From: a virus
IMG/VR virus record: IMGVR_UViG_3300034158_000007
Span: 32,001 to 96,000 of that record
Length of the DNA: 64,000 nucleotides
Reading direction: 5' to 3' (one strand)
The number at the start of each line of letters is the position of its first letter. Within the stretch, counting starts at the first letter, position 1. The translations under genes and the position numbers were made by a program. Shown piece by piece: positions 1,150-3,647 of the stretch. Below the pieces are notes generated by a model, which saw nothing but the letters and a program-made list of their open reading frames with translations, was not told the DNA's origin and did no database searches.

Positions 1150-1517
1150 TTAATAGCCCTCGTTTAATAGTTCACTCAAAGCACGAGCCTGAGATACAGC
1201 AGTATTAGCAAAGACATCACTCAAGTAATAGTCTTTGTCCACAGCTAGCGTAGCGAGTTCTCGCATGAGTTCGGGGTTAGCCTTAGCCCATGTTGCCCAG
1301 AAACCTTTATACTGCTCATACGTCGGATTGAAGCCTTCCAGGGGTGGTTTACCCTTAGCGTCTTTCCAGTTGTTCGTATACTGTCTGTAACCCTTAGCAT
1401 CTAACTGCCAAGCTTCTTCGATAGTGCGCCCATCCGGTAGCCGTGCAAACAAAGCACTGAATCGTTTGTCGCCAACGGAGGAACATTCGTATCCTCCGCG
1501 ACGCTTCCACCGGTATG
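1150..1517 (-). CDS. Conserved phage protein (YECSSxGDKRFSA family); no canonical in-frame start upstream of its conserved N-terminus
   Basis: The frame is open from about 1532 down to 1150 and reads RKPKVTYRWKRRGGYECSSVGDKRFSALFARLPDGRTIEEAWQLDAKGY. The track start (TTG 1452) lies inside this block. Confidence 0.65.
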
Positions 1518-3647
1518 TTACTTTGGGTTTTCTTTACTCAGCAAATAAGCTGCCAATACGTCATCGAGCTTAGGACCCTTGAGAACCTTCTGAGCGATCT
1601 CAATCACGTTAGTGCGGCAACCGGTTAGGTTTACGCCCAACTCACGCTTATGGTAGTCAGAGACCCCTTGTACGGCACTTGTCTCCATCACCGTGGTCTC
1701 ACGGGAGATGTTTAGGATCTGACTCACGTTCGGGTAAGTAGAAACGATGTCCAAGTCAGCTACGTGTGTCCAAATCAACGACTTGTAGTTCGGTAGATCC
1801 TTAACGCACTTAATCCCGTTAGGACCCGCCATGTAAGTTGGCAGTGTTACGATCCAACCATCATGACCTACTACGTATTGATCGAGATCATGAACCATCT
1901 GATCCGAGCTAGTTCCGATCACTGCTGGATCAGGACGAGACAGATACCAGAAGTGCATGTCATCACACAAACGTTTCGGGTTCGAGCTAAAGTTCTTGTA
2001 GTCCGAAGACTTAGAGAACAAGCTGATCGATGTACCCAAGTCGTTAATACGCTCATCGAGTTGTTCCAGTCGAATGCTGTCGATGATGTTGTAAAGACCG
2101 TAACGTACTTTGTGATGCTTCTGCATCTCAATGTGCCATTCGATACCATTCAGGTGGTCGGTTTCTTTGAACTTCAACTTACCAAAGTTAAGCTTCATGT
2201 TAACCAGATAACCCGGATGCACGTTAACGCCCCAGACGAGTTCCTCAGTAGGGACCCAAACTGGCTCACGTACTTCTAGGGAACGCATCACTGTGTTCTC
2301 TTCAAAGTCGTAAATGAAACTAACGGTATCATCGTCATCGAAGTCTTGAGGGGTATCGTTCTCTTCGTCTTCTTCCAGCTCCTCTTCTTCCTCTTCCTCA
2401 GCTTCTAAGGATTCTTCAACCGAGGTAGTGGTTACAACGTCATCAGCAGGGTTACTAAAGCTCCAGTAAGGATAACTACCCGAACGGTCTGCGATCGCCT
2501 TGTTACAGGTCTTCATGAACGCATTGAAGTCAGCTTCTGTTTTAATCTCAGCTTCTTCATCAACCGAGAGTTCTTTACGCAGGATTGCATCCAACGCATA
2601 GCTTGGTTCTTTACCTTTAGCCAGACGGGTAACACGGTAAGTCGACATGGAGTCAATGCACTGGAACGAGGCTGGTGCTGTAACCCAGTGCCATTGGTCT
2701 TCTGGACCCTTAGACTTAGTTACGCCCGAAGCCGTTACCGACATAGCTTGGTCTTGACGATAGTGGAACTTACGGTACTGACGAGGAATGCTAGGATCAC
2801 TGAATACATCAGCTGGATTAATGCCGTAGTGTTCCAAGCATGCGAGGATTTTGGACATGTCGAAGTCCATGTTCCAGAAAGCAAAGAAGTCAGGCTTCCA
2901 CTCGTGCAGTTTACGCAAGCATTGAATAACGATATCCGCTGGAGTGTTAACAACCTCAACTTGAATGTTCAGGTTACGTGCTTTCTTCAAAGCTACCAGC
3001 TCAGGGATACGTTCCAGTTCATCCAGAGTCTCTTGTACCGGATCAGCTATATCACTCACCCAGTGTTTCAGATAAGCGAGGTATACGTGTTCTTTGTACG
3101 TAACGGACATACAGATAATCTGCCCGTCGTTCTCGGACTCATACACGTTTGTTTCGATGTCACCGCCTGCTACCGTGTTACGGCTAATCAGGTTTGGGTA
3201 AGCTTCACGATAGTCGTTCTTTAAGCAGCATACCGACGATACGTCAGCACCATACAGGTAAGGACTTCGAGCGAGTTGTTTAAGCCTTGGGTTTGGCCCT
3301 TGGCTATAATCGTTCAGTGCTCGTGCAATGGCTCGAGTCAACTTAGCTTGTGTGGTCTTGAACTGCTTAAGCTTGGACTTAAGCATGTAGTCTTTCTTTT
3401 CTTTGTACGGTCGTAGGTGTTCTGCTTTCTGTACAGCTGGATCAATCCAGAATGGACGAAGGTAGTTCTCTTCAAGCTTGATGACTGGGATACGTCGTTT
3501 GTCCTTTAAGTGGACAACCTCCTTAACGACGTGAATGTCATTGCTCCCACCAATCTCTGTTACGTGTGTAATGTGTTTGGCTTCAATGCCTACTACATCG
3601 TCCTTCGTGAAGTTATGCTCTTTAGCAAGTTTGATCAAATGATCCAT
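1518..3647 (-). CDS. Split family-B DNA polymerase, exonuclease + motif A subunit (phiKZ gp82-like)
   Basis: ExoI GDIET, ExoII FWNMDFD, ExoIII YNIID and PolB motif A ADLDIVSTYPN are present. It lacks motifs B and C, consistent with the split phiKZ polymerase. Confidence 0.85.
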   Translation of the reverse strand: MDHLIKLAKEHNFTKDDVVGIEAKHITHVTEIGGSNDIHVVKEVVHLKDKRRIPVIKLEENYLRPFWIDPAVQKAEHLRPYKEKKDYMLKSKLKQFKTTQAKLTRAIARALNDYSQGPNPRLKQLARSPYLYGADVSSVCCLKNDYREAYPNLISRNTVAGGDIETNVYESENDGQIICMSVTYKEHVYLAYLKHWVSDIADPVQETLDELERIPELVALKKARNLNIQVEVVNTPADIVIQCLRKLHEWKPDFFAFWNMDFDMSKILACLEHYGINPADVFSDPSIPRQYRKFHYRQDQAMSVTASGVTKSKGPEDQWHWVTAPASFQCIDSMSTYRVTRLAKGKEPSYALDAILRKELSVDEEAEIKTEADFNAFMKTCNKAIADRSGSYPYWSFSNPADDVVTTTSVEESLEAEEEEEEELEEDEENDTPQDFDDDDTVSFIYDFEENTVMRSLEVREPVWVPTEELVWGVNVHPGYLVNMKLNFGKLKFKETDHLNGIEWHIEMQKHHKVRYGLYNIIDSIRLEQLDERINDLGTSISLFSKSSDYKNFSSNPKRLCDDMHFWYLSRPDPAVIGTSSDQMVHDLDQYVVGHDGWIVTLPTYMAGPNGIKCVKDLPNYKSLIWTHVADLDIVSTYPNVSQILNISRETTVMETSAVQGVSDYHKRELGVNLTGCRTNVIEIAQKVLKGPKLDDVLAAYLLSKENPK

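What the first reader, a model, noticed from the sequence alone, without database searches (positions are those of the whole stretch)
1468..1527. Candidate programmed -1 frameshift fusing the DNA-polymerase exonuclease subunit to a start-less downstream ORF
Seen: the minus-strand polymerase subunit ends AAC CCA AAG TAA, so the heptamer C_CCA_AAG (forward 1521-1527) has the canonical X_XXY_YYZ form directly before the stop. A -1 slip gives CCC AAA GTA ACA TAC..., exactly the frame of the next ORF (PKVTYRWKRRGGYECSSVGDKRFSALFARLPDGRTIEEAWQ...). That ORF has no ATG/GTG/TTG between its upstream in-frame stop (about 1535) and TTG 1452, which lies inside its conserved-looking block. About 18 nt downstream is a strong hairpin (GTCGC..GGAGGA-9nt-TCCTCC..GCGAC, forward 1468-1502) that also buries an out-of-frame GGAGGA+ATG. 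Established: A_AAG-ending slippery sites are efficient in bacteria. Inference: a fraction of polymerase subunits carries a ~120-aa C-terminal extension, as with dnaX tau/gamma.
Basis: partly seen in the sequence, partly recalled or inferred. Interest (0 to 1): 0.72.

Follow-up and report, generated by a model that had tools for sequence, protein, structure and literature searches.

The report
Polymerase–NADAR fusion by ribosomal frameshift
In phiKZ-like giant phages, ribosomes most likely slip back one base at the last codons of a DNA-polymerase gene, which attaches a small, mostly unannotated domain to a share of the polymerase molecules; the domain has the fold of enzymes that strip ADP-ribose from DNA.

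Summary
The minus-strand polymerase ORF ends with the in-phase heptamer C_CCA_AAG and then TAA. The next ORF lies in the -1 frame and has no ATG/GTG/TTG before an internal TTG.

Comparison of 22 pol-adjacent lineages supports a conserved -1 programmed frameshift.
- All 15 lineages with the domain in the -1 frame carry an in-phase C_CCA_AAG, G_GGA_AAG or A_AAA_AAG with an open -1 path. These are the three best bacterial -1 heptamers.
- Ten of the 15, including phiKZ, have no canonical start.
- All 7 lineages with the domain in the +1 frame lack a heptamer and have their own start.
- No other such heptamer occurs in 10,305 pol codons, or in the whole 64-kb window.
- The start-less ORF is under strong purifying selection (dN/dS 0.03-0.04).
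- A distant phiKZ-like phage encodes polymerase and domain as one continuous ORF.

The extension folds with confidence (pLDDT 97) into a compact NADAR-like fold. Homologs elsewhere are fused to a macrodomain, SLOG domains, helicases and DNA_pol_A.

It lies 18 nt downstream and is not universal, so a stimulator role is doubtful. No frameshift product has been shown experimentally.

The parts
1518..3647 (-). ORF of the N-terminal subunit of the phiKZ-type family-B-like DNA polymerase (709 aa: exonuclease part and motif A, DLDIVSTYPN). This is the 0-frame product.
   Evidence: ORF list. phrog_3011 'DNA polymerase', E 1.5e-227. 55-87% identical to the annotated DNA polymerases of phiKZ gp082, 201phi2-1 gp144 and PhiPA3 gp085.
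1521..1527 (-). Slippery heptamer C_CCA_AAG, in phase with the polymerase frame. Proposed -1 shift site, with tRNA-Pro moving CCA to CCC and tRNA-Lys moving AAG to AAA.
   Evidence: Sequence. It is the only in-phase V_VVA_AAG in the window. It is conserved or replaced by G_GGA_AAG / A_AAA_AAG in all 15 lineages with the -1 arrangement. These three are the most efficient -1 heptamers in E. coli (PMC4066793).
1518..1520 (-). 0-frame stop TAA directly 3' of the heptamer. It ends the unshifted 709-aa product.
   Evidence: A stop directly follows the heptamer in 10 of the 11 lineages with C_CCA_AAG or G_GGA_AAG.
1150..1527 (-). -1 frame reading from the heptamer: 125 sense codons (PKVTYRW...NEGY) plus a stop. 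It encodes a NADAR-fold domain of about 121 aa (phrog_9995). The predicted frameshift product is 832 aa.
   Evidence: Translation. phrog_9995, E 2e-51, with profile position 2 at the Y of YRW. AF2 pLDDT 97. NADAR structures are the top three PDB matches, Z 8.9/7.4/7.0 against 3.5 for the next. dN/dS 0.04 against L039.
1468..1502 (-). Hairpin (5-bp plus 6-bp stems, 9-nt loop) starting 18 nt 3' of the heptamer. RNA-level conservation in a subset of lineages; role unresolved.
   Evidence: Fold. Identical sequence in the window, L039, L013, PhiPA3 and PA1C, and L012 differs only in the loop. In the first 17 codons after the slip site, 12-15 of 15-16 same-residue degenerate codons are identical, against about 25-50% in the next 17. 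Degraded in phiKZ and absent in Phabio, L015 and 201phi2-1.
1484..1497 (-). SD-like GGAGGA plus an out-of-frame ATG inside the hairpin. Most likely incidental, as the GGAGGA is the Gly-Gly codons of the domain.
   Evidence: The motif is absent where the residues are YD-G or YD-A (201phi2-1, Phabio, L015).
1450..1452 (-). First canonical start codon (TTG) in the domain frame. It lies inside the conserved domain, so it is an annotation artefact rather than the true N-terminus.
   Evidence: The invariant residues R5-A21 (YECS..GD.RFSA) lie upstream of it.

Best explanation
A conserved -1 programmed ribosomal frameshift. Most ribosomes translating the polymerase mRNA stop at TAA (1520-1518) and release the 709-aa polymerase N-terminal subunit. 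A fraction slips at C_CCA_AAG (1527-1521): with tRNA-Pro on CCA in the P site and tRNA-Lys on AAG in the A site, both tRNAs move back one base to CCC and AAA. Those ribosomes read on in the -1 frame for 123 more codons and make an 832-aa polymerase carrying a C-terminal NADAR-fold domain. In this window the domain ORF has no start codon of its own, so the frameshift is its only plausible route to expression. Shown here: the sequence anatomy, its conservation pattern, purifying selection on the ORF, the fold, and an in-frame fusion in a relative. Inferred: that slipping occurs, and its efficiency, which is unknown (E. coli data for these heptamers give about 0.3-4% without stimulators and up to 54% with a pseudoknot). 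Also inferred: the domain acts on nucleic-acid ADP-ribose adducts at or near the replisome.
For: (1) Anatomy confirmed.
(2) In 22 non-redundant pol-adjacent lineages, 15 of 15 with the domain in the -1 frame carry an in-phase V_VVA_AAG heptamer with an open -1 path to the domain. Ten of these have C_CCA_AAG, one G_GGA_AAG and four A_AAA_AAG. Ten of the 15 have no ATG/GTG/TTG in between: window, L012, L013, phiKZ, Phabio, L015, Noxifer, L026, L028, L029. All 7 with the domain in the +1 frame lack a heptamer and have a canonical start within 81 nt. No other in-phase V_VVA_AAG occurs in 10,305 pol codons.
(3) The codon before CCA encodes N, V, P, S, L or A but always ends in C. Where the next codon is GGA it ends in G. 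So the X_XX match is kept at a synonymous site while the residue varies.
(4) The three heptamers seen are the three most efficient -1 motifs in E. coli (PMC4066793; PMC5009743).
(5) The start codon is labile on the tree (ATG, GTG, ATA, ACA, ACT, GTA, GTT at or next to the same position) while the heptamer persists.
(6) dN/dS is 0.04 for window vs L039 and 0.03 for phiKZ vs PhiPA3, so the start-less ORFs are translated. The invariant N-terminal motif lies upstream of every internal start.
(7) P0020, from a distant phage with a phiKZ-type capsid gene next door, encodes the polymerase N-subunit and the domain as one continuous ORF.
(8) Stand-alone homologs outside the polymerase context have an AGGAG-type SD plus ATG (L016, L040). 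The junction here has none.
Against: There is no experimental product (junction peptide, band or ribosome-profiling signal), and no paper on it was found in the searchable library. No conserved stimulatory element was found. RNAalifold gives no shared structure, most lineages fold no better than shuffles, and the window's hairpin starts 18 nt after the heptamer instead of the usual 5-9. Without a stimulator, expected efficiency is low. The window's nearest relative (L039, 97% identical domain) and PhiPA3 have an ATG overlapping the stop (TAATG), and 201phi2-1, Viktualia and PA1C have a GTG. The domain can therefore also be made free-standing. In those lineages, and in the 7 lineages with the +1 arrangement, fusion is evidently not obligatory. 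Part of the conservation of C_CCA_AAG within the main clade could be common descent.
Confidence: 0.78

Rival explanations
1. There is no frameshift. The domain is made as a free protein by termination-reinitiation (translational coupling) at a non-canonical codon next to the polymerase stop: ACA in the window, ATA in phiKZ, GTA in Phabio.
For: Relatives with TAATG (L039, PhiPA3) or a nearby GTG (201phi2-1, Viktualia, PA1C) look like classic coupled genes. The lineages with the +1 arrangement clearly use their own starts. ATA is a known weak initiator (general knowledge).
Against: ACA, ACT, GTA and GTT are not functional initiators. The Noxifer, L026, L028 and L029 lineages have no near-cognate codon anywhere near the domain but do have A_AAA_AAG. 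In L028 and L029 the polymerase stop lies inside the domain, so reinitiation could not deliver the conserved N-terminus. This reading does not explain the wobble-base covariation or the heptamer/frame correlation.
Confidence: 0.1
2. The gene really starts at the internal TTG 1452 (100 aa), as annotators did for PA1C, Psa21, Phabio and Noxifer. The upstream in-frame stretch is untranslated.
For: It is the first canonical start. Several GenBank records annotate the equivalent internal start.
Against: The stretch upstream of TTG carries the most conserved residues of the family (R5, Y9, E10, C11, S12, G15, D16, R18, S20, A21) and the first beta-strands of the confident model. Differences between phiKZ and the window there are almost all synonymous. 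No SD precedes the TTG.
Confidence: 0.03
3. The window's copy is an artefact or is decaying. Either the metagenomic contig has an assembly or sequencing error, or the start was recently lost (ATG to ACA relative to L039) on the way to a pseudogene.
For: The window comes from a 134.6-kb IMG/VR contig. Its closest relative has ATG at this codon.
Against: ACA differs from ATG at two bases. L013, with a domain 68% identical, has the same ACA, and L012 has ACT. The ORF is intact, with 27 synonymous against 5 non-synonymous differences from L039. Many independently sequenced phiKZ-type isolates (the domain matched 69 Pseudomonas phage records in all) show the same start-less arrangement.
Confidence: 0.04
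4. The frame change happens at the RNA level: transcriptional slippage by the phage RNA polymerase on the A or C runs, not on the ribosome.
For: The A_AAA_AAG lineages have a run of six A. These phages use unusual RNA polymerases whose slippage behaviour is unknown (general knowledge).
Against: [quoted passage not shown] Known transcriptional slippage needs longer homopolymers (PMC5009743). The requirement met in every lineage is the in-phase X_XXA_AAG pattern, which is a property of tRNA re-pairing, not of run length.
Confidence: 0.03

Closest known systems
Phage lambda G/GT tail-assembly chaperone frameshift (and its many phage counterparts)
   Same: A -1 shift on a V_VVA_AAG-type heptamer (G_GGA_AAG in lambda) a few codons before the end of the upstream ORF. 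It gives a minority C-terminally extended fusion at a fixed ratio (about 30:1) without a well-defined stimulator. The frameshift is conserved across phages while its details vary (PMC5009743).
   Different: The genes and biology differ: here a replicative polymerase subunit is extended by an enzyme-like domain, not a chaperone pair. Some lineages here have replaced the frameshift by an own start or by an in-frame fusion.
Bacterial dnaX tau/gamma frameshift
   Same: A replication protein is recoded by -1 slippage on A_AAA_AAG, the very heptamer used by the Noxifer, L026, L028 and L029 lineages. tRNA-Lys slippage on AAG is central to both.
   Different: In dnaX the shift leads to an immediate stop and a shorter product, and it depends on an upstream SD-like element and a hairpin 6 nt downstream. 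Here the shift lengthens the protein by a whole domain and no such stimulators are conserved.
IS3/IS911 OrfAB transposase frameshift
   Same: A -1 shift in the overlap of two ORFs fuses them. The second ORF often lacks an efficient start. The same heptamer class is used (PMC4066793).
   Different: IS elements usually have a pseudoknot or hairpin plus an SD stimulator, and the fusion is the active enzyme. Here the unshifted product is presumably the main functional polymerase subunit.
Phage NADAR anti-DarT factor AdfN (T4 30.3) and DarG1 antitoxins
   Same: A small phage-encoded NADAR-fold protein. Those proteins remove ADP-ribose from guanine in DNA and so protect phage replication (PMC11543638, PMC11825919). 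The model matches the same three PDB NADAR structures that were used to identify AdfN.
   Different: There is no Pfam NADAR hit and no significant profile-profile match. The domain is much more compact (121 aa against 160-220). Activity is untested. It is expressed as a polymerase extension rather than as a free protein.
Chimallivirus AdfM (phiKZ gp104 macrodomain)
   Same: A phiKZ-family ADP-ribose eraser that works inside the phage nucleus against DarTG2 (PMC13309987). This shows that DNA ADP-ribosylation is a real threat to these phages.
   Different: AdfM is a different fold (macrodomain), a separate gene, and is imported on its own. The domain studied here is not mentioned in that paper.

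Membership tests
-1 programmed ribosomal frameshift site (heptamer type) | In-phase X_XXY_YYZ heptamer allowing both tRNAs to re-pair in the -1 frame | tested here: met
   C_CCA_AAG at 1527-1521, in phase with the 709-aa ORF. It is one of the three most efficient bacterial motifs.
-1 programmed ribosomal frameshift site (heptamer type) | Downstream coding sequence in the -1 frame, open from the heptamer, under purifying selection and without its own initiation signal | tested here: met
   125 open codons. No ATG/GTG/TTG/ATA/ATT/ATC/CTG before the conserved domain. dN/dS 0.04. No SD.
-1 programmed ribosomal frameshift site (heptamer type) | Shift site conserved among relatives beyond what the protein sequence requires | tested here: met
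   15 of 15 lineages with the -1 arrangement keep a V_VVA_AAG. The wobble base of the preceding codon co-varies with it (C before CCA across six different residues, G before GGA). None of the 7 lineages with the +1 arrangement has one.
-1 programmed ribosomal frameshift site (heptamer type) | Stimulatory element: structure 5-9 nt downstream and/or SD-like sequence upstream | tested here: inconclusive
   The hairpin begins 18 nt downstream. It is conserved at synonymous sites in six lineages, but there is no consensus structure across the family and most folds match shuffles. SD-like upstream runs are seen in only some lineages (read by eye). A 0-frame stop directly follows the heptamer in 10 of the 11 lineages with C_CCA_AAG or G_GGA_AAG.
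-1 programmed ribosomal frameshift site (heptamer type) | Observed trans-frame protein product | not testable with these tools
   This needs mass spectrometry, immunoblot or a reporter assay. No report was found in the literature.
NADAR superfamily (Pfam PF08719) | Match to the family's sequence profile | tested here: not met
   No Pfam hit for the window protein or for any of 23 homologs at E up to 10. hhalign against a YbiA-subfamily profile gave probability 0.07. No PDB sequence match.
NADAR superfamily (Pfam PF08719) | NADAR fold | tested here: met
   AF2 model with pLDDT 97. VIA-align top three: 8bat Z 8.9 (114 aa, 3.0 A), 2b3w Z 7.4, 8bau Z 7.0; the next unrelated chain scores Z 3.5. Foldseek also ranks 8bat first (probability 0.92, TM 0.62), but its E-value of 0.22 misses the tool's 0.001 cut-off, and 2b3w at rank 2 has probability only 0.18.
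NADAR superfamily (Pfam PF08719) | Catalytic Glu and Lys of the E...Q..K helix (E88/K95 in E. coli C7 NADAR) and a third acidic residue (D171/E125) | tested here: inconclusive
   E33, Q37, K41 and D100 are invariant in the family. The motifs FSA / DG.T / E...Q...K line up by eye, and in the non-significant hhalign, with YbiA FSN / DG.T / E48..Q52..K55. The Glu-Lys spacing differs by one residue. No residue-level structural superposition was available.
NADAR superfamily (Pfam PF08719) | ADP-ribosyl (glyco)hydrolase activity on nucleic-acid bases | not testable with these tools
   Context only: homologs are fused to a macrodomain, SLOG domains, an AlkB-like domain, RNase H, PIF1 helicase and DNA_pol_A.
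dnaX tau/gamma-type frameshift | The shift leads to premature termination, giving a shorter product, and is driven by an upstream SD and a hairpin 6 nt downstream | tested here: not met
   Here the shift bypasses the stop and adds 123 residues. No conserved SD or closely spaced hairpin.

The most novel reading that the evidence does not exclude
The frameshift is a delivery device. By being translated as a tail of the polymerase, a NADAR-type eraser of DNA ADP-ribosylation (guanine adducts of the DarT1 type, or a related base adduct) is carried into the phage nucleus and held at the replication fork. There it clears the lesions that would block that polymerase. It would be a replisome-tethered counterpart to the free nuclear macrodomain AdfM, dosed at a fixed ratio to the polymerase. 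Lineages that gained an own start, an in-frame fusion or a homing-endonuclease fusion would be alternative solutions to the same delivery problem.
Probability: 0.3. Interest if true: 0.85.

Novelty: new variant of a known kind. Interest (0 to 1): 0.74.

Why it matters
phiKZ and its relatives are the model nucleus-forming phages, and their replication machinery is poorly understood. If the reading is right, three things follow.
- Their polymerase gene hides a conserved recoding event.
- A roughly 375-nt conserved ORF that most phiKZ-type GenBank records leave unannotated is in fact a polymerase extension.
- The replisome carries an enzyme-like domain from a superfamily now known to undo DNA ADP-ribosylation by DarT toxins.

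This would add a replication-gene case to phage frameshifting, which is known mainly from tail and capsid genes. It would link recoding to counter-defence. It would also offer a simple explanation of how a small enzyme reaches DNA that is sealed inside the phage nucleus. It has a practical consequence for annotation: gene callers truncate or skip this ORF in dozens of genomes.

Tried and rejected
- Sequence-level assignment of the domain failed. Pfam gave nothing for 23 homologs. A profile search of PDB sequences gave nothing credible. hhalign against YbiA alone and against a YbiA profile was not significant. The ESM-Atlas features search gave only weak leads at 0.76 (DUF4326, DUF488, DUF6939).
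- A conserved RNA stimulator was sought and not found: RNAalifold on nine junctions and single folds of nine lineages. Only Phabio folds better than shuffles (z -4.0), with different hairpins.
- The idea that the out-of-frame GGAGGA-ATG starts a real small ORF was dropped, because the motif is not conserved.
- P0011, P0013 and P0275, long proteins that contain the domain, were tested as possible polymerase fusions and are not. Only P0020 is.
- A -2 slip on the conserved GAAAAG of the Psa21-type lineages was considered. It was set aside because every one of them has a canonical start nearby.
- Literature searches for a described frameshift in phiKZ-type polymerases found nothing. One search on gp82 names was wasted on unrelated papers.
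- The polymerase ORF has no direct PDB sequence match.
- Earlier-findings look-up: nothing on this genome.
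Full report
**1. The observation**

The window's minus strand carries a 709-aa ORF (3647..1518) that ends AAC CCA AAG TAA. The heptamer C_CCA_AAG occupies 1527-1521 in phase, and the stop occupies 1520-1518. The -1 frame is open from a TAA at 1536-1534 to a stop at 1152-1150 and reads PKVTYRWKRRGGYECSS.... 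It contains no ATG, GTG or TTG, and no ATA/ATT/ATC/CTG, before TTG 1452. The hairpin at 1502-1468 is real, with centroid energy -16.5 kcal/mol. It begins 18 nt after the heptamer, and the surrounding 70-88 nt fold no better than shuffles.

**2. What the two ORFs are**

The upstream ORF matches phrog_3011 'DNA polymerase' (E 1.5e-227). It is 55-87% identical to the polymerase N-terminal subunits of phiKZ (gp082), 201phi2-1 (gp144), PhiPA3 and relatives. The window itself is part of a 134.6-kb IMG/VR viral contig.

The downstream frame is phrog_9995, a family of unknown function about 124 aa long. Profile position 2 aligns with the Y of YRW, so the family's normal N-terminus lies right after the polymerase stop, far upstream of TTG 1452. 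The same family occurs as a free-standing gene in N4-like Achromobacter and Delftia phages, Sphingomonas phage PAU, Bacillus SP-15 and others.

**3. The junction in relatives**

I collected junctions from GenBank phages and from IMG/VR and tabulated them by script. Homology of the upstream ORF to the polymerase was checked by tblastn. There are 22 non-redundant lineages in which the domain follows the polymerase.

In 15 of them the domain lies in the -1 frame. All 15 have an in-phase heptamer of the class V_VVA_AAG (V = C, G or A) with an open -1 path to the domain.
- Ten have C_CCA_AAG: window, L039, L012, L013, phiKZ, PhiPA3, 201phi2-1, Viktualia, PA1C, Phabio.
- One has G_GGA_AAG: L015.
- Four have A_AAA_AAG: Noxifer, L026, L028, L029.

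Ten of the 15 have no ATG/GTG/TTG between heptamer and domain. The codon at the usual start position is ACA (window, L013), ACT (L012), ATA (phiKZ), GTA (Phabio) or GTT (L015). The four A_AAA_AAG lineages have nothing start-like at all. In L028 and L029 the polymerase frame even runs 69-96 nt past the heptamer, into the domain.

In the other 7 lineages (Psa21 type) the domain lies in the +1 frame. None has a heptamer, and every one has a canonical start within 81 nt. Heptamer presence therefore tracks reading frame without exception.

No other in-phase V_VVA_AAG occurs in 10,305 polymerase codons scanned. The one at 1527 is the only one among 23,280 ORF codons in the 64-kb window.

**4. Conservation beyond the protein**

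The residue before the Pro varies (N, V, P, S, L, A), yet its codon always ends in C. In L015, where Pro-Lys has become Gly-Lys, the preceding codon ends in G. The X_XX identity that tRNA re-pairing needs is thus kept at a synonymous position and co-varies with the next codon. Polymerases of the Psa21 and Noxifer types end quite differently, so a C-terminal Pro-Lys is not needed by the enzyme.

According to Sharma et al. 2014 (PMC4066793) and Atkins et al. 2016 (PMC5009743), C_CCA_AAG, G_GGA_AAG and A_AAA_AAG are the three most shift-prone -1 heptamers in E. coli. They reach up to 54% with a pseudoknot and about 0.3% bare, rising to a few per cent with a favourable 3' context.

**5. The ORF is translated where it has no start**

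- Window vs L039: 27 synonymous and 5 non-synonymous differences, dN/dS 0.04.
- phiKZ (ATA) vs PhiPA3 (ATG): dN/dS 0.03.

The most conserved residues of the family lie upstream of every internal start. GenBank records of phiKZ-type phages either leave the region empty or annotate a C-terminal fragment such as PHIKZ082.1. PA1C, Psa21, Phabio and Noxifer are annotated from internal starts.

**6. History**

A tree of the polymerase C-part plus the domain places the lineages as follows.
- The four A_AAA_AAG lineages sit on one side of the midpoint root.
- The G_GGA_AAG lineage branches next.
- The C_CCA_AAG lineages form the remainder, with the Psa21-type group nested as sister to Phabio.
- ATG at the stop overlap appears only in PhiPA3 and L039, within one sub-clade whose other members have ATA (phiKZ), ACA (window) or a GTG after a 15-nt insertion (201phi2-1, Viktualia).

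So the start is gained and lost while the heptamer persists. The window's nearest relative (L039, 97% identical domain) does have TAATG.

**7. Independent support for a fusion protein**

A search for longer homologs found P0020 (698 aa). Its first 540 residues or so are homologous to the polymerase N-subunit (E 2e-34, covering residues 44-697 of the window protein), and its last 140 or so are the domain. It is one continuous ORF on a 45.5-kb contig, next to a phiKZ-type major capsid gene.

In another close relative (L058) a homing-endonuclease ORF sits exactly at the junction. There the polymerase ends without the heptamer, and the still start-less domain is fused in frame to the endonuclease ORF. 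The domain is habitually translated as the tail of whatever lies upstream.

**8. What the extension is**

With a 23-sequence alignment, AlphaFold2 gives a confident model (pLDDT 97, pTM 0.89). An exhaustive structural comparison puts three NADAR structures on top:
- Geobacter DarG1-type NADAR 8bat: Z 8.9, 114 residues, 3.0 A.
- E. coli YbiA 2b3w: Z 7.4.
- Phytophthora NADAR with ADP-ribose 8bau: Z 7.0.
- The next, unrelated chain: Z 3.5.

Foldseek also ranks 8bat first (probability 0.92), although its E-value of 0.22 does not reach that tool's 0.001 cut-off.

Sequence profiles do not see the relationship. The motifs do line up by eye with YbiA: FSA / DG.T / E...Q...K in the domain against FSN / DG.T / E..Q..K. 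E33, Q37, K41 and D100 are invariant in the family. They are candidates for the Glu, Lys and Asp shown to be catalytic in DarG1-type NADARs (PMC11543638). This mapping is inferred, not shown.

The family is large: 882 representative clusters. The domain often sits inside very long multidomain proteins. Its fusion partners are a macrodomain, DUF4326, DUF488-N3a, SLOG domains, an AlkB-like domain, RNase H, a PIF1-type helicase and DNA_pol_A. All are nucleic-acid or ADP-ribose themed.

Phage NADARs (AdfN) neutralise DarT1 by removing ADP-ribose from guanine in phage DNA (PMC11825919). Chimalliviruses are known to need a nuclear macrodomain, AdfM, against DarT2 (PMC13309987). That paper does not mention the present domain.

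**9. Mechanism proposed**

The proposal is tandem -1 slippage of tRNA-Pro and tRNA-Lys on C_CCA_AAG, with the 0-frame stop next in line. It yields mostly the 709-aa subunit and a minority 832-aa polymerase-NADAR-like fusion.

The arrangement resembles lambda G/GT more than dnaX: the heptamer lies at the very end of the upstream ORF, no strong stimulator is evident, and the two products are made at a fixed ratio.

The functional reading is inference. It holds that tethering places a DNA de-ADP-ribosylating (or related) activity at the replisome, and that import of the polymerase carries the domain into the phage nucleus. The Psa21-type lineages and those with their own starts show that a covalent link is not indispensable.

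**10. The hairpin**

Its sequence is identical in the window, L039, L013, PhiPA3 and PA1C, and L012 differs only in the loop. In these lineages 12-15 of 15-16 same-residue degenerate codons are identical in the first 17 codons after the slip site, against roughly a quarter to a half in the next 17. Some RNA-level constraint therefore exists.

However, the hairpin is degraded in phiKZ and absent in Phabio, L015 and 201phi2-1. RNAalifold finds no shared structure. The 18-nt spacer puts it outside the ribosome's entry channel when the heptamer is being decoded. Its role could be as a stimulator acting in an unusual way, as a mask for the internal GGAGGA-ATG, or in mRNA stability. That role is left open.

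**11. Limits**

All evidence for slipping is comparative, and the efficiency is unknown. Common descent explains part of the persistence of C_CCA_AAG. The independent signals are the changes to two other heptamers, the wobble covariation and the link between heptamer and frame. The NADAR assignment rests on fold and motifs only.

Noticed in passing
L004:1743-2048 (PhiPA3, NC_028999.1): The PhiPA3 polymerase gene is interrupted by a group I intron (Rfam RF00028, 71.7 bits, full length). The annotated 'DNA polymerase' CDS stops inside it at ADLD, and the last exon (IVSTYPN... to the heptamer) is unannotated.
   Followed up: partly
L058:1374-4002 (Logan SRR30872317 contig): In this close relative an HNH_3 gene lies inside the polymerase region. 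A second HNH/AP2-like endonuclease ORF sits exactly at the polymerase/domain junction. The polymerase ends ...SKE TAA without the heptamer, a terminator-like hairpin follows, and the start-less domain is fused in frame to the endonuclease ORF (P0003, 333 aa).
   Followed up: partly
L001:1984-2351 (phiKZ NC_004629.1 79877-80244) and L054, L055: phiKZ-type records leave the roughly 375-nt conserved ORF between gp082 and gp083 unannotated, or annotate only a 38-aa C-terminal piece (PHIKZ082.1). This is a systematic annotation gap across dozens of genomes.
   Followed up: yes
L006, L018, L020, L021, L023, L024, L027 (Psa21-type junctions): In the seven lineages with the domain in the +1 frame, the polymerase end overlaps the domain start by about 20 nt and GAA AAG AAG is conserved. 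The codon at the usual start position varies (TTG, GTG, CGG, ACG, CTG), with other starts 39-81 nt upstream. A -2 slip of tRNA-Lys on GAAAAG would also reach the domain frame. Not pursued.
   Followed up: partly
L037:1501-2268 (IMGVR_UViG_2522572179_000012): Here the domain is fused to a C-terminal part that looked SLOG/DUF2493-like by eye in a 256-aa ORF; no domain search was run on it. P0005 fuses the domain to a macrodomain (PF01661), P0012 to a DNA_pol_A fragment (PF00476), and P0021 to AlkB-like (PF13532) plus cpYpsA.
   Followed up: partly
window 2300-2450 (-), residues about 400-464 of the polymerase: This strongly acidic insertion (a run of E/D) in the polymerase is absent or different in relatives. 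The tblastn alignments break there in most lineages.
   Followed up: no
L025:1508-1577 (Phabio junction): Phabio alone shows a markedly stable fold just after its heptamer (-29.5 kcal/mol, z -4.0). It has one hairpin starting about 10 nt downstream and a 13-bp hairpin further on, unrelated in sequence to the window's hairpin.
   Followed up: no
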